Assembly (NCBI GenBank): GCA_000004985.1
Contig: GG738907.1
From: Naegleria gruberi
Taxonomy: Eukaryota
Length of the DNA: 64,000 nucleotides
Direction: 5' to 3' (one strand)
Shown: piece after piece, positions 32,168 through 59,155 of the stretch
Layout of the letters: each line of letters opens with the position of its first letter
Position numbering within the stretch: the stretch's first letter is position 1
Notes under the pieces: model-generated
The model's database searches: none
Told to the model about the DNA's origin: nothing
Seen by the model: only the letters and a program-made list of their open reading frames with translations
Position numbers and translations under genes: made by a program

Positions 32168-34324
32168 ATGATAAGTGGAGGAAGCGCATCTAATTCCAAT
32201 GTTGTTGGTCCAATTTCATCTTCCCTCCATACAACAACAACAACATCCAACTCAAGTGCTTCTAATGATAATAATAATAATAATAATACACAGATCCTTC
32301 CACAACAACAGCAACATCAACAAGAAGCAAGTAGTTTGACCTCTTTCTTAACTTCACAACAAGGAGTAGGTAATAACAACAACAACAATAACAACACTAC
32401 TCCAATAACAACAACAACAATATTAGCATCAGGAGGAGGGGAACAAATTTCCCAGCAACAATCTTCTCATCATGCTATTGTTATTGGTGGTGCAAATACT
32501 AATACCTCACTTTTACCACCATTGGCTAAATCCACTCCAATCATGACTACAACAACACTTAATGGTACTAGCGCTGCTAATCAACCAAGTTCATCATCAA
32601 CAACATCACAATTTGTGCCTATTGCCCCAGCAACGAGTAATCCACACAATAATTCACTAAGTGTACAACCAGCTCATTCCTCAGATCATGTAGCTGAACA
32701 TCATACAAAGAGTGTTCCGTCAAATTCCTCCGTGAATGTATCCAATAACAATGTGCCATCTAATGTTTCTTCCTCACAACAAGCTAGAAGACCCAAACCT
32801 GTTCAAATTGGTTTTATGCCACCAGTATCCTTGTGTGTTTTGATGGAACAAATGGCCTCTAAGATTCATCAACACTATCAACCTCAAAAACCACCTAGTT
32901 CATCTAAGAAATCAGAATTATCCTCTCAAAAAAAGGATGTAGCAGGGGAATCATCTTCCACCCTTAATTCCAACAGTAGTGAAGATGCTAAGAAAACAGA
33001 AACAATGTTAACTGATGATAAGACTAACAATCAATCTAACGAAACAAATGCTAATGTAATATCTACTTCTAGGAATGTTTCATCAACTAGTCAAGGAAGA
33101 TCCAAGTCACCAGGGTCAACTCCATCTCTCTACGATATTTTAAATGAGGAATATCATTCCAACTATTCCAATTATCAAGAATTGATTCATGCAACAAATT
33201 TGATTGTTGAATTTTTATATGGAAATACTGATCTTAAAGAGAGATACCATCCATTTCATTCACAGTTTGCTAGTCAACAACATCCATCCTTTTCTTGGGT
33301 TTATATGGTACCACCTGACCAAACTCCTCCAGTTATGTACCCTAGTGCACCATCAACAATAGGTTCATCATCTTCACATTCTGGAGTTGCAATTCCAATT
33401 TCTACTCCTGTAAAATCTGGAAGAGGCACAAGATCTGACATTACGCCAACTTCTAATTTCAAATCTGCTTCAACGGGCAGTAGTTCAGCAGCAAGTTCAC
33501 ATGATACATTGGAAATTCCTCCTCCAGTTTTTGCCATGCCAAAACCAAATAATGGCAGTTCAGAGGCTTCAACTCCAATGAGAGTAAGAATTGCACCAAA
33601 TACTGGTGGCGGTACTGCCATGCTACCAATACCTGAACATCAACATATTTCACCATTCCCAATACGGGCCAAGGAAGAAGATTTGATGGAAGAAGATAAA
33701 AGAAAGAGAAGAATCAGCAAGAAACCAGAAACTGGAGAAGGAACAACTGGAAGTGATGAACAAGAGAATAAGTTCGTTTGTTATATTTGTGACAAATCTG
33801 TTATTGATAAGAGTACCAAATATACACTCACCTCAAGTAATTTTTCATCATTCCATGAAGTTTTCCCTCATTTAAAGACTCCACTTTTGGGTGAATCAAA
33901 GAGAATTTGTGCTAATTGCTATCACAAAAAGTATAGAAATTCTAGAAAAAAGAAGGCTGACGATAAGAAGGATGTAATTAGTCAAGGTTCTTCCAATGTC
34001 ATGTCAGTTGATGCACAATCTGAAAGTTATGAACCAACTTACTGTTGTTGTGTTTGTAAAAAGAATGGAAGTGATGAATTTACTGAAACTAACTTTGTAA
34101 ATGTACAAAATTATAGATCATATCTTACCTACTTCCCATTCATATCGGATACTCCAACTGCAGATAGACAAATACCTGTTTGTGATGCCTGTCATGCAAC
34201 ATATTTACAAGCAGAAAATCAAGAAAAGAAGAGAAAGTTCATGCATATGCCAAATATTCCAAATGCTGTTGACACCCTTGAATCCCTCAATAAGAAACTG
34301 AAACCAGATACAAGCCATCTGTAA
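32168..34324 (+). CDS. Low-complexity (N/S/T/Q-rich) protein with C-terminal CxxC...CxxC zinc-finger-like clusters
   Basis: ATG at 32168. Poly-N and poly-T runs are present. The C-terminus contains FVCYICDKS...ICANCYHKKYRN and CCCVCKKNG...PVCDACHATYLQ. Confidence 0.4.
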   Translation: MISGGSASNSNVVGPISSSLHTTTTTSNSSASNDNNNNNNTQILPQQQQHQQEASSLTSFLTSQQGVGNNNNNNNNTTPITTTTILASGGGEQISQQQSSHHAIVIGGANTNTSLLPPLAKSTPIMTTTTLNGTSAANQPSSSSTTSQFVPIAPATSNPHNNSLSVQPAHSSDHVAEHHTKSVPSNSSVNVSNNNVPSNVSSSQQARRPKPVQIGFMPPVSLCVLMEQMASKIHQHYQPQKPPSSSKKSELSSQKKDVAGESSSTLNSNSSEDAKKTETMLTDDKTNNQSNETNANVISTSRNVSSTSQGRSKSPGSTPSLYDILNEEYHSNYSNYQELIHATNLIVEFLYGNTDLKERYHPFHSQFASQQHPSFSWVYMVPPDQTPPVMYPSAPSTIGSSSSHSGVAIPISTPVKSGRGTRSDITPTSNFKSASTGSSSAASSHDTLEIPPPVFAMPKPNNGSSEASTPMRVRIAPNTGGGTAMLPIPEHQHISPFPIRAKEEDLMEEDKRKRRISKKPETGEGTTGSDEQENKFVCYICDKSVIDKSTKYTLTSSNFSSFHEVFPHLKTPLLGESKRICANCYHKKYRNSRKKKADDKKDVISQGSSNVMSVDAQSESYEPTYCCCVCKKNGSDEFTETNFVNVQNYRSYLTYFPFISDTPTADRQIPVCDACHATYLQAENQEKKRKFMHMPNIPNAVDTLESLNKKLKPDTSHL

Positions 34325-38938: not shown

Positions 38939-41238
38939 ATGAGTAATATTGCACTTCGTTTAACGGATTATAAAATTGAGTATGATTCACAGCTGACGAA
39001 TAACAAACCACTCTATGTAAATTACTTTATTCGATGCTCGTACAAGGCTAAAACTTCATCATTATCCAATGAACAATCCTACACGGTGATAAAGAGGTAT
39101 TCCGAAATATTAGAGTTACACAAAAAGATTTTGAAACAATTGGGAAAGAGGCTAACATCAAATAATGAGAAAAAGTCGAATAGTAATATTGAGGAGGGAC
39201 TTAAATTTCCTGGAAAATTGTTATTTGGTAATTTTAAGGTAAATTAATTTTACATTAATTCATCATAAATTAATTACATAACATTTTACGTATTAATATC
39301 ACTTAATTGTATCATATATATATTTGATAATTTAAATAGGATGAAAATATAATGAAGAGAAAGGATGAATTGCAAAAGTATTTTGATCAAATTACCTCAA
39401 TGCCAATGATTACTCAGGATCCATTGGCTTGTCAAATTATTTATGCATTCTTCAGAAGAAGTTTGCAACGCATTTCACCAAGGAGTGTATTTGGAGATTA
39501 TTATGACAGAGTTTTGGAAAAGGTCAAGAAAATGTCTGTTACATCCGATGAGGATTTGAACATGTTCAATTCTGTTACTTCACAAGCTTCAAAAGGTACT
39601 TCTGATGTTGTTTTCCAAACCATCGATCAAATTAAGGGGTTGGATCAACTAGTTTACTTGAACATGGATGTTCCAAGTGTGAGTACTACTCACATGAAAA
39701 ATGAAGAAGATGACTTGGATGATTTGTATTATATTGTAAATAATTCACCAAAGGATAATTTCAATGAGGACAGAAGTGGAAATCATGGTAAAAAGAAGAA
39801 GAATACTCGAGAATTGAAATCAATGTGGTGCAACATGTTAATGGAAGATTGTATTCCAGCATTTGTATCTGAAGATTTGGATGTGTTAAATAATTTGGAT
39901 ACATCATCAGTTTTCAGCTTGGATTGGAATGGAATGATTACCAATCTGTGTCAAGTGATGAATAATTACAACAAGGCCATTCAATATCCTAGAATGATGA
40001 TGTATAAGGAATGTTGTGAAGTTTATGAAAAGTTAAAGCAAGAACGTGAGATTGCCCTCATTCTGATCTACAATAGAATGAAGAAACTGTTCGAAGATGA
40101 TAAGAAAAATCCAAGAACTACTGAACAAGGAAAGGCAGCCAAGAACTGTCTCTCCGCTTTGGCCCAAAACTGTGTCGATATGGCAGTAACTTTTGAAGAA
40201 ATTTCAGAGAGTTTTTCCTTATTGAAAAAGTACTTTTCTGAGCTTGCTAGTAATAATCCAATCACTCAAAGAGAGGAATTTATTTGTACTCTTGGCTATT
40301 TGAATGAAATTTTAACCATCCTAATTGAACAAGTCAAGAAGGGGCATCAAAAGAATGTTACACTCCGTCAAATTCTCAAGACCATGTTTGTTGTTTTTGA
40401 AGATATTGCCACAAGTAGAATGAAGCTATTCAAACAAAGTCAAACCTCTCAAACATCAAATAGTTCTGATGAAGAAAGCAAATCTAAAACATCTGAAAAT
40501 GAAGATCCAGACACTGATACCTATAATGTTCATTGCAGAGAATACTTGGAACATTTCTTGCTTCCATTTGCTTCTATCGGTTTCCTTTCAGAGTTGACTT
40601 TTATGGTTCCAGACTCGATGAAATATTTCATCATGTATAATTGTGCCTTAAAAGAAAAGAGAATCAAGGCAATCATTTCACAAAAATCAGAAAATGACAA
40701 TAATGTTGATATCCAAATGAGACAGTATGCTGAAAAATTCTTCACAGAGAAGATGCCACACTCAGATGAGACAAGAGAGGCCTTGGCTAGAGCATTCCAA
40801 TCTGAACTTCAAAGTTTAAGCAATAACGATATTGTCAATCCAGACAATTTGCTTTTTTGTATTCCCGAACCATTGCACAGAACATGTACATTATACTGTA
40901 TGCGTTTCTTGAGCTTTGTCAATGAATTACCAGAGATGGAAGGTATTCAATTTTGTAAATTAGTTCACCAACAATATTCCAGAACAACAATGCAAGAAAT
41001 TGATCAGTGGAATGTAATGATTCATGTATGTGAAAAGACACTGAACATTGTCAATCAGGTACACAAGAGCTACTTGCAAAATAATTCAGTAGATATTGCC
41101 AGTACTTCTGACTCGGTCAAGATTTCCATAACATACGAAACCAAATCCAGATTAGATTTAATTTCCAAACAATTTTCAGGCTATTCAGATAGATTACATT
41201 TCTATAATAACGAATCTAAACGTCTCAGATTACTTTAA
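38939..41238 (+). CDS. PX (phox-homology) domain protein in two exons: join(38939..39238,39340..41238)
   Basis: ATG at 38939. Exon 1 ends ...AATTTTAAG|GTAAAT. A 101-nt AT-rich intron ends aaatag at 39339. The phase-0 junction gives ...FPGKLLFGNFK|DENIMKRKDELQKYFDQI, which completes the PX consensus (RYSEILELHKKIL ... FPGK ... RKDELQKYF). Confidence 0.6.
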
Positions 41239-41621
41239 CTTTGTTAATTTATTAAAATAATCAATTCTAACAGGGTAAAAATTGTTCATGAAATCTTATT
41301 CTTCATATCCATATATTTCAATTCCGATCATGAACAATTTTAACAGTAAACTTTCAAAGTTTTATAATGTAATGACATCGTTGTTTTGGTGAATAATTGT
41401 TTTTCAATAAAATTAAAATTAACCTCCTTACCAAAAAAGACAAACAAAGATATTACATGAAGCATATGAAAATTCTGCATCCCATCATAATATTGTTAGT
41501 GGATTCAAAGAAGCTTGTGTTGTACCACTTGATACAAAGTCAGCACTTGCCAAAATTCAACATTCCAAAAATAGTAATCAAGAAATTTGGAAATTTATTA
41601 TCGGAATTAAATTATTTTGCC

Positions 41622-42377
41622 CTATTTACACATTTTACAACAACAAACACAACAGCAAACCAAGATTAAGATTATAAATCCTAAAATCATAGCTCCTCCA
41701 ACAACAACACCAGCAACAATTCCACTTGAGGCACTTCCAGGTGATTTGTAAACAAGTGCCAAATTGGTAACACCACTACTTGATTTCTGGCATGAAGGTG
41801 TGAAATTATCAACTGAGGAACACAAGATAAAATCAGAGGTGAATGCAATTTCACCTTCCTTAATATTGAAACAAATTGGAACACTATCGGAATTGTACTT
41901 TAGAATGGCATTGTACAAATTACTTAATGGTCTCTTAACAATAGTTCCAATTGAATAGGTAAACTTGACAATGTTATGAGAAACTTCAATACTGCTCGGT
42001 GTTGAATTCAACATGGTGAGTGGAATCATTTGTTGATTGCAATTTTCATCGTACAAGGTTAAATCACCTAATAACCAAGTTCCGGATGGGATTGTTGAGG
42101 ATTGACGAGTGTGTTTGTTGTTACTTTCGAGTTGGTTGATAAAGTTTTGGCGAGCTTCTTGGCTGTATCTTGTCTTGGCTGTTTGGATGAACGAGTTTAG
42201 TTTGGTTTCGACTTGGTTGAGCTTTTTGTTCCATGATGATCGGAAAGGATTGTCAATACAGTGGACACTGTTTACCATGAGCAAAGCTGCAAGAGAAAGC
42301 AATAGGAGAATTGGGAGAAGGAAATTTCTTCTCTTGTTAATGTTGCGAATTGTGTTATTCGAAACTTGTGACGACAT
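41622..42377 (-). CDS. Type-I membrane/secreted protein with C-terminal TM helix and poly-cysteine tail (CCCVCCCKMCK); paralog of 42698..43504
   Basis: ATG (rc) at 42375-42377. Signal peptide MSSQVSNNTIRNINKRRNFLLPILLLLSLAALLMVNS. The C-terminus reads GVVVGGAMILGFIILILVCCCVCCCKMCK. Confidence 0.5.
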   Translation of the reverse strand: MSSQVSNNTIRNINKRRNFLLPILLLLSLAALLMVNSVHCIDNPFRSSWNKKLNQVETKLNSFIQTAKTRYSQEARQNFINQLESNNKHTRQSSTIPSGTWLLGDLTLYDENCNQQMIPLTMLNSTPSSIEVSHNIVKFTYSIGTIVKRPLSNLYNAILKYNSDSVPICFNIKEGEIAFTSDFILCSSVDNFTPSCQKSSSGVTNLALVYKSPGSASSGIVAGVVVGGAMILGFIILILVCCCVCCCKMCK

Positions 42378-42697
42378 TTTTTTATCTTGTTAGAAGAGAA
42401 TCATGTAATTCATCTCCTTCCTTTTATTCTCCTTTCTCAATTAGTTTTTTTGGAATGGCCCTCTCACGCATTTCCTTACCACTTTGAATTGGCAACGATT
42501 CATCACCCAACGTCAGTTTCGACAAGTTTCTATCATTGATTTTTTCACACAAACATTCTAAAAGGAAAAGTCAACTACAGTATTCCATCTCATTCTCCTA
42601 AAATATTGAAACTCTTGTCAATTTTATTAATAGCGAACACTTGTTGTGGTAGTAGTATTGGGAACCGAACCATTGTGCGAGATGAGAAGAGTTTCGT

Positions 42698-43504
42698 TCA
42701 TTGAACCCATAGCCATTCTGTTTCTTCTTCTTCTTCTTCGGCCATGCAACAGCAACAACAGACACAACAAGCAATACAGAAAACAATTACCAAGACAATG
42801 ACAATGACAACACCAGCAATGGAAGCTGAAGTAATTGTTCCTGGACTATTGTAAGTAATTGTAACGGCATCTAATACGGATGAACAAGTTGGTTTTTCAT
42901 TCACTGAGCTACACAATAAGAAATCAGTTGATAATGATAAGGCACCATTCTTGAGATCGAAACAGACTGGAGCTGAATCCTTTTGGTAAGTTAAGACACC
43001 ATTATAGAGAGTGCTAAAAGGTCTTTGAACTACACTGTCAATTGTCAATAAGGAAACTCCAACAACTGAAACAGTAATGGAAGATCCAGTTGATTTCATT
43101 TGAATGAATGGATAGGTTTTAGTTTCACATCCTCCACCACCACCAGATTTGGCAGTATAGACAGACATATCACCTGTATACCAAGATCCAACTAACAGAG
43201 TTGTATCAAGAGCCTTTCTCTTAATGGATTCCCGAGCTAGTTGTGATGAAAAATCAACTCTCATCTCCTCTGAATACATTTCCTTAGATTTCTTAATCAA
43301 TTCTTCAATGGCTTGATAATTATTTTCGGAAGAGCCATAGGATGACCATTGCTTAATTCTATTATTTACAGTTTGATCTTGGACCGCTTGTTCCGAAACC
43401 CTCAATGATGATGATCCCTCCACTGCTACCTTCATCATTATCATCATCACAAAAACAAGCAACAATCCAAGCTTACTTGAGAGAGAAAAATTAACGTTCA
43501 TCAT
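42698..43504 (-). CDS. Paralogous type-I membrane protein with poly-cysteine tail followed by an acidic E-run (CIACCVCCCCCMAEEEEEE)
   Basis: ATG (rc) at 43502-43504. Signal peptide MMNVNFSLSSKLGLLLVFVMMIMMKVAVEG. It shares with the upstream neighbour the ectodomain blocks ...ARQNFINQLESNNKH / ...EMRVDFSSQLARESIKRK and LLCSSV. Confidence 0.5.
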   Translation of the reverse strand: MMNVNFSLSSKLGLLLVFVMMIMMKVAVEGSSSLRVSEQAVQDQTVNNRIKQWSSYGSSENNYQAIEELIKKSKEMYSEEMRVDFSSQLARESIKRKALDTTLLVGSWYTGDMSVYTAKSGGGGGCETKTYPFIQMKSTGSSITVSVVGVSLLTIDSVVQRPFSTLYNGVLTYQKDSAPVCFDLKNGALSLSTDFLLCSSVNEKPTCSSVLDAVTITYNSPGTITSASIAGVVIVIVLVIVFCIACCVCCCCCMAEEEEEETEWLWVQ

Positions 43505-45519: not shown

Positions 45520-46480
45520 TTACAAAACATTGTGTAATTTTGAATCGTTGAATAATTTTCTTCCAAGTCTGATATTCATCTTGACCATTTCACTCTCCAA
45601 TTTTGATTCTGCACTCACAATTACCATAATAAAAGTATTCATTGTAAATTCCTCAAAGAATGCAGAAAAATCACTTTTCACTAGTTCCATACTTGAGAGT
45701 TGGGAATGAGCTTTGGAGCAGCTCAGTTTGAATTGTTTGGTAATGTTGGCAATCTTTTCAAATCTGTGATCATCTTGGGTGACTTTCTCATTGGACCATT
45801 GAGAAATTAGGAGAAAGGTAGATCTTTCGAATAGGACAACTTCTTCAGCTCCACAAATTTTTGCAAATTCTTCGAGTTTGGATTTGATTTCATTAATTTG
45901 AGGAATCAATGTATTGAGAATTGATCCCCAAGCTCTATACAATGACTCATCCCAAATTGAAGTCCTAAAACAAGTCAAATCAGTCAATTCAGCCACAGCC
46001 ATAATTTCCTTTTCCTTCCTTTGTAAAATCTTTTCTCTCTCACTTGGAATTAACACATCAGTCTTATGCAGCAAACAGAATACCTTTGTATTTGATGAAT
46101 TTTCCCCAAGAGCTTGCAAACTTTCATGAAAATCCCTCAAAACTTCCTCATCTCCATCCGTAGAAACATCAAACACATAGACAAGTGCATTCACTTGTGA
46201 AAATATCGATTCTCTCCGATTTTTGAAATAATTCAACATCATATTTTGCTGTCCTCCACAATCCCACAAATTAACCTTCATATTTTCCATCAATTTAATC
46301 GGAATGTATTCCACATCAATTGTCGGAGCTAATTTTCTGCACTCCATCGGAGATGTCATTGCAAATAATATGGAACGCATTGAAGTCTTTCCAGAGCCAT
46401 TCTATTAATTATTTTAATATTCATCAAATCTCTCTTTACACAATTAATTATCATACCTTTCCCATTAACAATAGTTTCAT
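45520..46480 (-). CDS. RagA/B (Gtr1)-type Ras-related GTP-binding protein; exon 2 is 45520..46401, plus a short 5' exon starting at ATG (rc) 46478-46480
   Basis: Exon 1 reads ATGAAACTATTGTTAATGGGAAAAG|GTATGA (MKLLLMGK). An intron of about 55 nt ends aattaatag at 46402. Exon 2 reads (N)[14 protein letters not shown]...TIDVEY...LWDCGGQ...HKTD...FRTSIWDESLYRAWGSI..., which matches RagA ([26 protein letters not shown]...). The exact junction phase does not fit canonical GT-AG without a 1-nt shift. Confidence 0.7.
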
Positions 46481-55196: not shown

Positions 55197-55791
55197 TTTT
55201 TTTAATTGTTAGTTGTTTGATTTGTAACATCAGATGATTGCTTTATTGCTTTTCATAAGATGATTGCAATCATGTTATCTTCCTGATGAAGATCAGCTGG
55301 CTGCCTCCAACAGACAAAAATTCAACTCATTGGACAACGATGATGATCATAAAAGTTTAATGTGGCTTGTTTTGTGTGGCGTTTAATGTCCTATCGGAAT
55401 GAATCCATTTGGTAGACAATTATTTTCGTTATAGTAATCAGGAATGATGGTTCCTTTCTCTTTACAAAGTTGCTGTTGTTAGCAAAGAAATAGGATTGTT
55501 CAATTCATTGTTTGGAAATTTCCAAGTTGTATTATTAAACGTTTTTGTTCATGTAATTAGCGCCATATTGACCGTTACATATTTTTTAAATATTCAAATT
55601 TTTTTAAAAAAACAATTTCAAACAAATAGGATGAAAAGGAATAATTGTATTATTGGCAATTTTGGCGGATGATAATAGTGCATACCCGTGATACTTTTCA
55701 GGTCCATACAACAAGTGGTGCAAAATTGGTTTAGATAGTGAATAAGTGGTAAAGTAATGGCAAAAAATTGGTGGAATTTTCAGAAAACAAA

Positions 55792-58700
55792 ATGTTCAAA
55801 GGCTCATACTACGAGAAGGTTCTTGATGAAGAGGAGAGTTTCAAACCAACAACAACACCATCATCACCATCAGAACAACATGAAGATGTAGATAGTACTT
55901 CTTCGGAGGAAAATAATATACTTCCACCAATGATATCATCTCCAATGGAAAAGAAGGAAAATATAACGGTTGATCGAATGGAAACAAAGGCTTGTTCGAA
56001 GGCTTGTTGTTCTTCATCATCATCATCGAAGGCTGGTTGCTCAGAGGAAGAAGAACAACACGAACATTCGGCAGTTAATAGTACTCACAAACATAGTAAA
56101 AGAGGAACGAAATCAAAGTTGATGTATGGAAAGAAGAAGATCAAAATTAGTCAACTGCAACATTTGACAAAACAACATGATGAACATCATCACGAAGAAG
56201 AAACGACGTCAGAAACAACAAACATTTGCGAGAAGTCAAGCTCTTCTAATTGTTGTTCTTATGGTTCTTGCTCAAAGGAAAAACAAAAAGAACCAAACAA
56301 TGCAATTGTTTCAGATTGCTGTTCTTCAGGTTCCTGTTCCAAGAAAAGCAATGTTCCAGTTGAGAAGAAATCAACATGTACTTCTGGTTGTTGCCAGTCA
56401 GTATCAACTTCCACTGAGAGCAGAACAGAATTGAAATTGGATAATTTACTTCCTAATCACAAGTCTCTGCATTTGACTGTGAGAAATTTGCATTGTGCTG
56501 ATTGTGCCAATATGGTTGAGGGAGTTTTAATTAAGAAGAATGGTATTCTGAATGCCAGAGTGAATAGTATGACAGATTCAGCTCATGTAGTATATGACGA
56601 ATTAATTATACAAGAAACATTAATTGTAAAATCAATTCAAGACCTTGGATTTCCAACTAGTGTCTCTCTATTGAAAAACATTTCAAATTCTGATCAGGAA
56701 ACTCTTACAACCATGTTCGAATTCAAACAGGAGTTACAAACACACAAAGTAGATGAATTAGTTAAGAGCATTGAAAAAGGGGATGGCATTATTCATACGG
56801 CCTATGATACATCGAGTTGTCTCCTCCAAGTGGCTTACAATCCTGATATTACAGGTACAAGAGATATTAAGAAAATGATTGAAACCATCGATTCGAGCCA
56901 TATGTTTACAATTATGAGTGGTAGTAAAGCTAACGAGATTACCGATCAGAACAATAAGAATGAAATCAAAATATGGAGGAGAAACCTTATTGTTTCCTTC
57001 ATTCTTAGTATTCCAGTCATATTTACAGCATTCATCTTTCCAATGATCAAACCAGTTGATGAATTTTTGAAGAAGGAATTCTTACAAGGCCTCAATAGTT
57101 ATATTCTTATTGGATTTATTTTCTCAACACCAATCCAATTTTATTTTGGAAGACCATTGTACATGTCAGCTTACAGAGCTCTACGATATGCAAAAAAGCC
57201 AAACATGGATACACTTGTAATGCTGTCAACTACCACTGCTTATGTTTACTCGTTAGTGAGTACAATAATTGCAATGTTTGTTGAGACTTACAAGGCCGAA
57301 GCATTCTTTGAAACTTCGGCACTCTTGTTGACATTTATCATTTTGGGAAGGTAGGTTTTCTTACTTGTTATTAATTTTATTTATAATTACTATTAAGGTT
57401 TTTGGAAATACTTGCCAAAGGACAAACTTCGAGCATACTTACTTCCATTTTGAAACTCAGATGCACCAAAGCTTTTTTGATATTCAGAGGAAACTATGAA
57501 AGAATAACATGTCAAACCGAACTTGTAAATAATTCACATGCTGTAGAGGAAGAGGAGATTGATACTGATCTTGTTCAAAGAGGCGACATTTTAAAATGCC
57601 TTCCAGGTTCAAAAATTCCAACTGATGGAGTAGTGTTTTATGGCACTACATCGATTGATGAATCAATGATTAGGTAAGTTTTGAACCATAATTTAATTTG
57701 ACATTATTCAACCATAATAGTGGTGAATCTATTCCAGTTAACAAGGATGTTGGAGATTTTGTTTATGGCAGTACAATCAATCAATTTGGAACAATCTATA
57801 TCCGTGTAACAAAAACTAGTTCTGAAAATACTCTTTCTTCAATTGACAAATTAATTCACGAATCTCAAAATGCTAAAGTACCCATTCAAAGAATTGCTGA
57901 TAATGTTAGTGCAGTGTTTGTACCTGTAATTATTGGTATTTCCTTATTGGCTTTTATTATTTGGATCAGTTTGTGTTATGCTGGAGTTTTGGAAACTGAC
58001 CTGCATCCAATCACCTTTGCTTTACAGTTCTCTCTTGCAATTTTGGTAATTAGTTGTCCTTGTGCTATTAGTTTGGCAGCTCCAACAGCTGTGATGGTCG
58101 GTATCGCCAAAGGTGTTGAGTATGGTGTACTATTCAAGAATGGTGCTGTAATTGAGATGTGCCACAAGGTTAACACAGTCATATTTGACAAGACTGGTAC
58201 CTTAACCAATGGAAAACCAGTTGTTACAGACGTGTTGCTTTTTGAGGGAGATGATTTGAAGCAATTCAAAGCAATTATAGGTTCTGCAGAGTTGGGAAGT
58301 GAACACGTTATTGGAAAGGCTATTTCAACACACGTAGAAAAGGAGGGAATAGCTATAGAACAACCTGTTGATTATCAAGCAGTTCCAGGAAAAGGATTAA
58401 AATGTACAGTCTATGGAAAACAAGTGATTGCAGGTAATTGCACTTGGATGAAGGACAATTCAATTGAAATTTCAGAAACACAACAAGAACAAATTTTAAC
58501 TTTGGAGAATCAAGGAAAGACAATTGTTCACGTTGCAATCGATGGTTCTTTACATGGAATTGTTGCCCTCTCTGATACTCTCAAGGTGGAATCCAAACGA
58601 GTTATTGATGAATTGAAGAAGAAGAATGTGGAAATTTGGGTGGTTAGTGGAGACAACCAAGTCACAACTAGATATATCGCCAACCAATTAGGCATTGAGA

Positions 58701-59155
58701 ATGTAATGGCCAATGTCCTTCCAGCCTACAAGAGAGAAAAAGTGCTTGAATTGCAACAAGGTAAAACTTCCAATGGTAAAAAGAGAGTTGTTGCAATGAT
58801 TGGAGATGGTATCAATGATTCACCATCTCTAGCCCAAGCAGATGTTGGTTTTGCAATTGGATGTGGTTCAGATATTGCCTTAGAAACTGCGGATATCATT
58901 TTGGTAAAGAGTGATTTGAGAGATGTGCTTGTGGCTTTGGATTTGTCAAGGACTACTTTCAGAAGAATCAAACTCAACTTTTTATGGGCCTTCCTTTATA
59001 ATGCTGTTGGTATTCCATTATCTGCTGGAGCATTCTATCCAATCCTTGGTATTGCAATTCCACCAGCTATTGCAGGATTATCTGAGATTTTCTCTTCCAT
59101 TCCTGTAATTCTCTTCTCCTTACTTTTGAAATTCTACAAACCAAAGATTTATTAA
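55792..59155 (+). CDS. P1B-type heavy-metal (Cu+-type) transporting ATPase in three exons: join(55792..57350,57398..57673,57721..59155)
   Basis: ATG at 55792. Two 47-nt introns (GTAGGT...ttaag and GTAAGT...ataatag) join in frame to give LGR|FLEILAKGQTS and MIR->TGESIPV. Motifs found: CPC (SCPCAISLAAPTAV), DKTGTLT, GDGINDSPSLAQADVGFAIG, and TGESIPV. The N-terminus has Cys-rich metal-binding-like clusters and an HMA-like fold carrying CADC instead of CxxC. Confidence 0.85.

What the first reader, a model, noticed from the sequence alone, without database searches (positions are those of the whole stretch)
41622..43504. Tandem pair of signal-peptide proteins ending in a TM helix plus poly-cysteine tail
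Two adjacent same-strand paralogs (41622-42377 and 42698-43504) each have a signal peptide, an ectodomain of about 200 aa with shared blocks, a single C-terminal TM helix, and a juxtamembrane run of 6-9 consecutive Cys (CCCVCCCKMCK and CCVCCCCCMAEEEEEE). Such poly-Cys tails are classic multi-palmitoylation sites. The family is otherwise unannotatable and locally duplicated.
Basis: seen in the sequence. Interest (0 to 1): 0.55.

Follow-up and report, generated by a model that had tools for sequence, protein, structure and literature searches.

The report
Naegleria membrane proteins with poly-cysteine anchor
Two neighbouring genes of the amoeba Naegleria gruberi encode single-pass surface-type membrane proteins of a small, uncharacterised, amoeba-specific family whose membrane helix ends in a dense cluster of cysteines, most likely sites for attachment of several fatty acids; real and tidy, but a familiar device on an orphan protein rather than a surprise.

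Summary
The window is Naegleria gruberi. Both ORFs lie on the minus strand (41622-42377, 251 aa; 42698-43504, 268 aa). They are real paralogues (36% identity, E=1e-33). Each has an N-terminal signal-like hydrophobic segment, a roughly 180-aa ectodomain, one C-terminal membrane helix and a Cys cluster: 7 Cys in the last 11 residues of copy A and 8 in 11 residues of copy B. The longest uninterrupted runs are 3 and 5, not 6-9.

An exhaustive profile search of 1.84 billion proteins found only 11 relatives. All named ones are from Vahlkampfiid amoebae (N. gruberi, N. lovaniensis, Willaertia magna). Every full-length member has the same architecture. Across 12 members, 74 Cys lie in the cytoplasmic half of the hydrophobic stretch and 7 in the outer half.

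Multiple S-acylation is the best reading but is untested. Most relatives also end in a YxxPhi sorting motif, which both window copies lack. N. gruberi has at least five paralogues, and the tandem pair is an old duplication. Interest is modest.

The parts
41622..42377 (-). Copy A gene (251 aa, single exon; NAEGRDRAFT_81609 / EFC38518)
   Evidence: ORF. 100% full-length match to the NCBI protein. Three substitutions against a second N. gruberi-like allele, all synonymous.
42258..42377 (-). Copy A signal-peptide region (aa 1-40: basic n-region ...NKRRN, h-region FLLPILLLLSLAALLMV, candidate cleavage VHC|ID)
   Evidence: Hydropathy peak at aa 17-42. It aligns with the N-terminal hydrophobic segments of all full-length relatives. 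The cleavage site is inferred by the -3/-1 rule; SignalP was not run.
42108..42248 (-). Copy A ectodomain helical hairpin (aa 44-90)
   Evidence: AlphaFold2 model md289f093a48a, helices 44-70 and 73-90, block pLDDT 59-93.
41745..42083 (-). Copy A ectodomain up-and-down beta-barrel (aa 99-211), with invariant G104, D105, C113, C169, C186, C196 and an SGTW motif on the first strand
41658..41720 (-). Copy A transmembrane helix core (aa 220-240, IVAGVVVGGAMILGFIILILV)
   Evidence: Kyte-Doolittle mean 2.8-3.1. The model has a helix at 215-250.
41625..41657 (-). Copy A Cys cluster and C-terminus (aa 241-251, CCCVCCCKMCK), followed by the stop codon at 41622-41624
   Evidence: Sequence read. TGT/TGC repeat flagged by TRF at 41637-41660.
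42698..43504 (-). Copy B gene (268 aa ORF; NAEGRDRAFT_53043 / EFC38519, whose deposited model starts at Met24)
43415..43504 (-). Copy B signal-peptide region (aa 1-30, candidate cleavage VEG|SSS). Its hydrophobic core (aa 1-23) is missing from the deposited gene model, which starts at Met24.
   Evidence: Hydropathy peak at aa 4-34. It aligns with the signal segments of the paralogues.
42821..43414 (-). Copy B ectodomain (aa 31-228), homologous to the copy A hairpin and barrel
   Evidence: BLASTP alignment of aa 66-231. Alignment.
42740..42820 (-). Copy B transmembrane helix with Cys cluster at its cytoplasmic end (aa 229-255; Cys at 243, 246, 247, 249-253 = nt 42746-42778)
   Evidence: Hydropathy up to 3.6. 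Cys positions.
42701..42739 (-). Copy B acidic tail EEEEEETEWLWVQ, with (GAA)6 at 42722-42739. A second allele carries a 1-bp insertion at about 42739/42740 and reads RRRRRRNRMAMGS...VRY* instead.
   Evidence: TRF. Allele comparison.

Best explanation
The two genes are old tandem paralogues of a small family restricted, as far as can be seen, to Vahlkampfiid heterolobosean amoebae. Each encodes a type I membrane protein. A cleavable signal peptide directs a disulfide-containing ectodomain (a helical hairpin plus a small up-and-down beta-barrel) to the lumenal or extracellular side. A single C-terminal helix anchors the protein in the membrane. The last ~12 residues of the uncharged stretch, at the cytoplasmic leaflet and interface, carry 6-8 cysteines.

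The most likely mechanism is that membrane-bound DHHC acyltransferases S-acylate several of these cysteines. This would give a multiply lipidated anchor that affects stability, sorting or partitioning into ordered membrane.

Most relatives follow the Cys cluster with a short basic tail ending in a YxxPhi adaptor-type sorting motif. Copy A has lost the tail entirely and copy B has replaced it. The window pair is therefore probably sorted differently from its relatives, for example retained at the surface.

Shown here: gene reality, paralogy, family range, hydrophobic architecture, and the position and conservation of the Cys cluster. Inferred: signal-peptide cleavage, topology, disulfides, S-acylation, and the meaning of the YxxPhi motif. 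The ligand or role of the ectodomain is unknown; a binding barrel is only a guess from the fold.
For: - **Identity and paralogy:**
- **Family range:** the profile search of 1.84e9 representatives gave only 11 hits at E<1e-3. Named members are from N. gruberi, N. lovaniensis and Willaertia magna.
- **Shared architecture in all full-length members:** there are four invariant ectodomain Cys plus invariant G104, D105 and G214 (the GD and PG motifs). In most members a 34-residue uncharged stretch runs from the PG motif to the first charged residue.
- **Cys polarity:** 74 Cys lie in the cytoplasmic half of the stretch and 7 in the outer half, over 12 members.
- **Charge after the cluster:** basic residues follow the cluster in nearly all members, as expected for a cytoplasmic end.
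- **Structure:** model pLDDT 81.6, pTM 0.69, with a helix through aa 215-250.
- **Precedent:** TM-proximal cysteines of type I and II proteins are S-acylated with little other sequence requirement (PMC10520890). The consecutive-Cys patch of yeast CYSTM proteins is palmitoylated (PMC10840359). The Cys-rich tail of coronavirus spike is palmitoylated (PMC8950683, PMC12828983, abstracts).
- **Selection:** against a 98.9% identical allele, copy A has 3 substitutions, all synonymous.
Against: - There is no experimental or proteomic evidence of acylation, and no expression data for these loci were found.
- The presence of DHHC enzymes in N. gruberi was assumed from general eukaryotic knowledge and was not tested here.
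- Cysteines deeper in the helix are poorer DHHC substrates (PMC10520890), so not all 7-8 need be modified.
- Older members show a CCxxCCxxC spacing that places cysteines on one helix face. Acylation does not require that, and it could point to helix packing or metal binding.
- The cluster is encoded by TGT/TGC repeats, so its length may partly reflect replication slippage.
- Copy B's acidic tail violates the positive-inside pattern of the family.
Confidence: 0.65

Rival explanations
1. The cysteine ridge is a metal-binding or redox-active element at the membrane interface, as originally proposed for CYSTM modules. It could chelate Cu, Zn or Cd, or sense oxidants, possibly in an oligomer, rather than carrying lipid.
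For: CCxxCCxxC spacing (i, i+1, i+4, i+5, i+8) in P0004, P0006 and P0015 puts thiols on one helix face. CYSTM proteins were linked to metal and stress tolerance (PMC2804304). Copy B's Cys patch is followed by acidic residues, as in CYSTM.
Against: The CYSTM patch itself was later shown to be palmitoylated (PMC10840359). The spacing is not conserved: the window copies are near-homopolymeric and the Willaertia copies are irregular. There is no match to the CYSTM model even at E<=10. The Cu-type ATPase 13 kb away carries no weight in a eukaryotic genome.
Confidence: 0.12
2. The poly-Cys run has no specific role. It is a trinucleotide (TGT/TGC) slippage product, tolerated because cysteine is hydrophobic enough to sit at the end of a membrane helix.
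For: The cluster is encoded by imperfect TGT/TGC repeats, next to a perfect (GAA)6 in copy B. Cys number varies from 4 to 12 among members. A natural allele frameshifts the tail immediately after the run, showing that the region is mutable.
Against: A Cys-rich cytoplasmic helix end is present in every member across Naegleria and Willaertia despite 20-40% overall identity. The 74:7 polarity is strong and Cys arrangements differ between members. That is the pattern of selection for cysteines rather than of a recent repeat. Copy A's coding changes against the second allele are all synonymous.
Confidence: 0.12
3. The N-terminal hydrophobic segment is an uncleaved signal anchor. The proteins would then be two-pass hairpins with both ends cytoplasmic and the beta-barrel domain lumenal or extracellular, rather than classical type I proteins.
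For: Copy A has a long, basic n-region of 17 residues (NKRRN) and AlphaFold draws the segment as a long helix. No signal-peptide predictor could be run.
Against: The h-regions are short (about 13-17 residues) and are followed by small residues at -3/-1 (VHC|I, VEG|S). N-terminal lengths vary freely among members and there is no conservation before the h-region. The position and reading of the Cys cluster would be unchanged in any case.
Confidence: 0.08

Closest known systems
CYSTM / CYSPD proteins (Pfam PF12734; yeast Cpp1-3, Arabidopsis PCC1)
   Same: A C-terminal hydrophobic helix bears 5-6 cysteines with 3-4 consecutive, at or near the extreme C-terminus. It is followed by acidic residues in copy B. 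The patch is experimentally palmitoylated in yeast (PMC10840359).
   Different: CYSTM proteins are under 150 aa, have no signal peptide, and have a Pro/Gln-rich cytosolic N-terminus. They are attached by the Cys module itself. The Naegleria proteins have a signal peptide, a folded ~180-aa ectodomain and a separate Cys-free hydrophobic core before the cluster. There is no HMM match.
Viral type I glycoproteins with Cys-rich endodomains (coronavirus spike; also influenza HA and reovirus FAST p10)
   Same: Type I topology with a dense cysteine cluster directly after or overlapping the cytoplasmic end of the TM helix. The cluster is multiply S-acylated in spike (PMC8950683, PMC12828983).
   Different: No sequence or fold relation. 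The ectodomain here is a small barrel, not a fusion machine. The weak Pfam hits (Orthoreo_P10 at E=9.6, EphA2_TM, CYYR1, TMEM52) reflect TM-plus-Cys composition only.
Lipocalin / calycin-type beta-barrels (lipocalins, YceI, nitrobindin)
LAMP-type short-tail membrane proteins with C-terminal YxxPhi signals
   Same: Most relatives (not the window pair) have a 13-15-residue basic tail ending in YGRL-N, YTRV-N, YNQF or YGQL, and the Willaertia member P0010 has YARM in a longer 27-residue tail. Position and form match tyrosine-based adaptor signals (established knowledge, Bonifacino and Traub 2003, cited from memory).
   Different: There is no homology to LAMPs. The motif is short and its function is untested. 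It is absent from copy A and replaced by WLWV in copy B.

Membership tests
CYSTM/CYSPD (PF12734) | Match to the family profile | tested here: not met
   There is no PF12734 hit for either full protein at E<=0.1. There is none for the isolated C-terminal segments or five relatives at E<=10.
CYSTM/CYSPD (PF12734) | Small (<150 aa) protein without signal peptide, with a non-globular Pro/Gln-rich cytosolic N-terminus (PMC2804304) | tested here: not met
   The proteins are 251 and 268 aa. They have an N-terminal hydrophobic signal segment and a confidently folded ectodomain.
CYSTM/CYSPD (PF12734) | C-terminal helix with 5-6 Cys, including 3-4 consecutive, followed by an acidic residue, at the extreme C-terminus | tested here: inconclusive
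   Copy A has CCCVCCCKMCK at the very end but no acidic residue. Copy B has CCVCCCCC followed by MA-EEEEEE. This is a resemblance in composition only.
Lipocalin / calycin superfamily | Eight-stranded up-and-down beta-barrel with significant structural similarity to solved members | tested here: inconclusive
Lipocalin / calycin superfamily | Sequence-conserved regions (SCR1 GxW and others) detectable by profile comparison | tested here: not met
There is no Pfam lipocalin hit.
S-acylated single-pass membrane proteins (functional class, not a homology family) | Cysteines within or next to the cytoplasmic end of a TM helix | tested here: met
   Cys lie at positions 19-34 of the 34-residue uncharged stretch. 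The count is 74 in the cytoplasmic half against 7 in the outer half over 12 members. Basic residues follow the cluster in most members.
S-acylated single-pass membrane proteins (functional class, not a homology family) | Thioester-linked fatty acid demonstrated on those cysteines | not testable with these tools
   This needs acyl-biotin or acyl-PEG exchange, or metabolic labelling.
S-acylated single-pass membrane proteins (functional class, not a homology family) | DHHC acyltransferases present in the organism | not tested
   This is assumed from their general presence in eukaryotes. No DHHC gene was seen among the window ORFs scanned. The literature search gave nothing specific.

The most novel reading that the evidence does not exclude
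The family is a heterolobosean-specific ligand receptor. A lipocalin-like barrel would capture a small hydrophobic molecule (sterol, haem or lipid) at the surface. The YxxPhi tail would cycle the ancestral forms through endosomes or lysosomes. The face-aligned cysteine ridge would act as more than a lipid anchor, for example as a reversible acylation or redox switch that controls clustering or sorting. Under this reading the window pair are tail-less, surface-retained derivatives.
Probability: 0.1. Interest if true: 0.55.

Novelty: new variant of a known kind. Interest (0 to 1): 0.3.

Why it matters
If the cluster is acylated, these would be among the most densely lipidated single-pass proteins known in a free-living excavate. 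They would be a handy natural substrate for studying S-acylation in Naegleria, where almost nothing is known about it. The family is lineage-restricted and probably surface-exposed, so members in the N. lovaniensis/N. fowleri clade could serve as markers or antigens. The natural variation seen here offers ready-made constructs for asking what the cysteines do independently of the tail: tail present with YxxPhi, tail absent, tail acidic, and tail frameshifted to poly-Arg. Beyond that, the device itself is well known, and no long-standing question hinges on it.

Tried and rejected
- **Pfam scans** of both proteins, their C-terminal segments and five relatives gave only sub-threshold hits driven by composition.
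- **PDB sequence profile search** gave nothing below E=1.
- **hhalign against RBP4 and ApoD** gave no meaningful match.
- **A word-indexed search with the 13-sequence alignment** added no new members.
- **A scan of JGI metagenome contigs** gave 77 pattern matches, none confirmed. The broad alignment was too divergent for pattern scans of viral or metagenome contigs.
- **Exact look-up of P0004 and P0006 loci** found no record, so I could not check whether the other paralogues are also in tandem.
- **Literature searches** by locus tag, UniProt accession, and Naegleria plus palmitoylation, DHHC or cysteine-rich surface protein found nothing on this family.
- **Rejected: 3' UTR artefact.** The Cys cluster is in the deposited CDS and is conserved in-frame in all relatives.
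- **Rejected: recent tandem duplication.** A and B are only 37% identical, and A is closer to dispersed paralogues.
- **Rejected: functional linkage to neighbouring genes.** The neighbours (RagC/Gtr GTPase, PX-domain ORF, unknown ORFs) are ordinary unrelated eukaryotic genes.

Full report
**What is there**

The window is nuclear DNA of the amoeboflagellate Naegleria gruberi. Both ORFs hit NCBI 'predicted protein [Naegleria gruberi]' entries on a 275-kb scaffold at 100% identity. The two ORFs are on the minus strand.
- Copy A is 41622-42377, 251 aa, and is identical to EFC38518 / NAEGRDRAFT_81609.
- Copy B is 42698-43504, 268 aa. Its deposited model (EFC38519 / NAEGRDRAFT_53043, 245 aa) begins at the internal Met24.

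Both appear to be single-exon genes. BLASTP between them gives 36% identity over 171 residues, E=1e-33. tblastn finds no third copy in the window.

**Architecture**

Kyte-Doolittle profiles show two strong hydrophobic segments per protein.
- The N-terminal segment has the build of a signal peptide. In A it is a basic n-region, the h-region FLLPILLLLSLAALLMV, then VHC|ID. In B it is LGLLLVFVMMIMM, then VEG|SS.
- The C-terminal segment is the membrane anchor.

The N-terminal segment of B exists only if translation starts at the upstream ATG. Every full-length paralogue has a hydrophobic N-terminus aligned there. I therefore consider the deposited B model truncated.

The C-terminus of A reads IVAGVVVGGAMILGFIILILV-CCCVCCCKMCK-stop. 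That of B reads IAGVVIVIVLVIVFCIACCVCCCCC-MA-EEEEEETEWLWVQ-stop. That gives 7 Cys in the last 11 residues of A and 8 Cys in 11 residues of B. The longest uninterrupted runs are 3 and 5, so '6-9 consecutive' is loose.

Chance expectation for such a cluster is below 1e-6 per protein. No other ORF in the six frames of the window has 5 or more Cys in 12 residues, apart from an overlapping frame of B.

**Family**

The word-indexed searches found three further N. gruberi paralogues on other scaffolds, plus unnamed environmental sequences. The three paralogues are NAEGRDRAFT_63015, NAEGRDRAFT_81655 and NAEGRDRAFT_66875.

An exhaustive HMM search of 1.84 billion representatives with the six-sequence profile returned only 11 proteins at E<1e-3. 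The named ones are from N. gruberi, N. lovaniensis (KAG2374242) and Willaertia magna. The two Willaertia proteins (KAL9643991 and KAL9644001) lie on the same contig with locus tags ten apart.

There is no Pfam family above threshold, no PDB sequence relative, no JGI metagenome locus, and no paper naming the loci or accessions. As far as these databases show, this is a small orphan family confined to Vahlkampfiid heteroloboseans.

Within the ectodomain core, A is 51-58% identical to P0003, P0004 and P0006 but only 37% identical to B. B is 37-42% identical to the other N. gruberi-type members and less to the rest. The tandem pair is therefore an old duplication, and B is the divergent member.

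**Conserved features**

The 13-sequence alignment has eight invariant columns. Besides the initiator Met they are G104, D105, C113, C169, C186, C196 and G214 in A numbering. That is four ectodomain cysteines, probably two disulfides (inferred), and a PG motif just before the membrane.

In most members an uncharged stretch of exactly 34 residues runs from that PG motif to the first charged residue. The cysteines occupy its last third. Over 12 distinct members, 74 Cys lie in the cytoplasmic half of the stretch and 7 in the outer half. Basic residues follow the cluster in nearly all members.

Older-looking members show CCxxCCxxC spacing (for example LILCCFICCIVC), which would line one helix face. 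The window copies have condensed this to near-homopolymeric Cys encoded by TGT/TGC repeats.

**A second tail feature that the window pair lacks**

Most Naegleria-type relatives end in a 13-15-residue basic tail with a tyrosine motif one or two residues from the C-terminus. The Willaertia member P0010 carries the motif in a longer 27-residue tail.

| Member(s) | Motif |
|---|---|
| P0004, P0005, P0006 | NYGRLN |
| P0007, P0015 | MYTRVN |
| N. lovaniensis P0008 | SYNQF |
| Willaertia P0010 | AYARMNEQL |
| L001 | SYGQL |

These fit the YxxPhi adaptor-binding consensus, here recalled from established knowledge and not tested. Copy A stops immediately after the Cys cluster, and copy B has EEEEEETEWLWVQ. 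The window pair has thus kept the cysteines and dropped the sorting motif.

**Ectodomain fold**

With the 13-sequence alignment, AlphaFold2 gives mean pLDDT 81.6 and pTM 0.69. The model has a helical hairpin (aa 44-90), nine strands in an up-and-down arrangement (aa 99-211, pLDDT about 86-93), and a continuous helix through aa 215-250.

The first strand begins with S-G-T/S-W, which recalls lipocalin SCR1. I describe the fold as a calycin-like meander barrel and make no homology claim.

**Population and allele evidence**

An ENA metagenome contig (L003, ERZ929261) covers both genes at 98.9% identity over 1705 bp.
- Copy A differs by three substitutions, all synonymous, since the protein is identical.
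- The covered part of copy B has eight substitutions, four of them amino-acid changes. It also has a 3-bp in-frame deletion and a 1-bp insertion directly after the Cys codons.

That insertion converts EEEEEETEWLWVQ* into RRRRRRNRMAMGSMNETLLISHNGSVPNTTTTTSVRY*. The poly-Arg version fits the family's basic juxtamembrane pattern better. The one substitution in the extension is synonymous in that frame. I therefore flag that the reference tail of B may be a frameshifted allele or a sequencing error. Either way, what lies after the cysteines is evidently dispensable or labile, while the cysteines are kept.

**Mechanism**

The cysteines sit where membrane-embedded DHHC enzymes act. TM-proximal cysteines of diverse type I and II proteins are S-acylated, needing little more than the TM domain and the cysteine (PMC10520890). 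The consecutive-Cys patch of yeast CYSTM proteins is palmitoylated (PMC10840359), as is the Cys-rich spike endodomain (abstracts).

Multiple acyl chains would stabilise and thicken the anchor and could direct sorting or partitioning into membrane domains. These steps are inferred; nothing here measures acylation.

The rivals are:
- a metal or redox ridge, as first proposed for CYSTM (PMC2804304);
- a functionally neutral repeat expansion;
- an uncleaved signal anchor, which would change the topology model but not the reading of the cluster.

**Comparison and verdict**

The proteins work like S-acylated single-pass membrane proteins and share a compositional motif with CYSTM modules. They fail the CYSTM membership tests on three counts: no profile match, a signal peptide plus a folded ectodomain, and a size well above 150 aa. 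They are not demonstrable lipocalins.

I class the finding as a new variant of a known kind: a familiar lipid-anchoring device on an undescribed, lineage-restricted ectodomain family. It is real and cleanly defined but not surprising, and I score interest at 0.3.

Noticed in passing
window 43436-43504 (-): The deposited NCBI model for copy B (EFC38519, 245 aa) starts at internal Met24 and omits the hydrophobic core of the signal peptide. The upstream ATG at 43504 restores an N-terminus that aligns with all paralogues.
   Followed up: yes
window ~42739/42740; L003:560-720: A second N. gruberi-like allele (ENA ERZ929261) has a 1-bp insertion at the start of the (GAA)6 repeat. It switches copy B's tail from EEEEEETEWLWVQ* to a 37-residue poly-Arg-initiated tail. 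The reference tail may be a frameshift allele or an error.
   Followed up: partly
window 41327-41600; L003:1706-2669: Genes A and B and their spacer are 98.9% identical between the two alleles. In contrast, the intergenic DNA just downstream of copy A is diverged, with only two short patches alignable (75 bp at 91%, 37 bp at 95%). This sharp change in divergence is unexplained.
   Followed up: partly
L001:4574-5334 and L002:2180-2940: In an unnamed Naegleria-like assembly (Logan SRR29240419 and ENA ERZ2098899), the orthologue of N. lovaniensis KAG2374242 needs two frame changes within about 60 bp to be read through. It may be a pseudogene. It still ends ...FCCCCRNKQGSTLRQESYGQL*.
   Followed up: partly
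relatives P0004-P0008, P0010, P0015; L001: Most family members outside the window end in a YxxPhi-type motif (YGRL, YTRV, YNQF, YARM, YGQL), placed one or two residues from the C-terminus in the Naegleria-type members. Both window copies lack it.
   Followed up: partly
window 38939-39247 and 39352-41238 (+): A short ORF with a weak PX-domain match is followed about 100 bp later, on the same strand, by a 628-aa ORF with no clear domain. They are probably two exons of one gene split by a short intron.
   Followed up: no
window 45520-46380 (-): This is a Gtr1/RagA-family GTPase (Pfam E=1e-66). The ORF matches the profile from position 15 onward, so a short 5' exon probably lies upstream.
   Followed up: no
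window 55768-57354 and 57698-59155 (+): The first ORF has a heavy-metal-associated domain and the second has E1-E2 ATPase and HAD domains. Together they look like a copper-type P-type ATPase split by an intron. It is unrelated to the finding but relevant to anyone weighing the metal-binding rival.
   Followed up: no
window 32168-34324 (+): This 718-aa low-complexity (Asn/Thr/Ser/Gln-rich) ORF has repeated CxxC...CxxC motifs near the C-terminus, including 'YCCCVCKK'. It gave the only other short tblastn echo of the Cys run. It has no TM segment and is not related to the family.
   Followed up: partly
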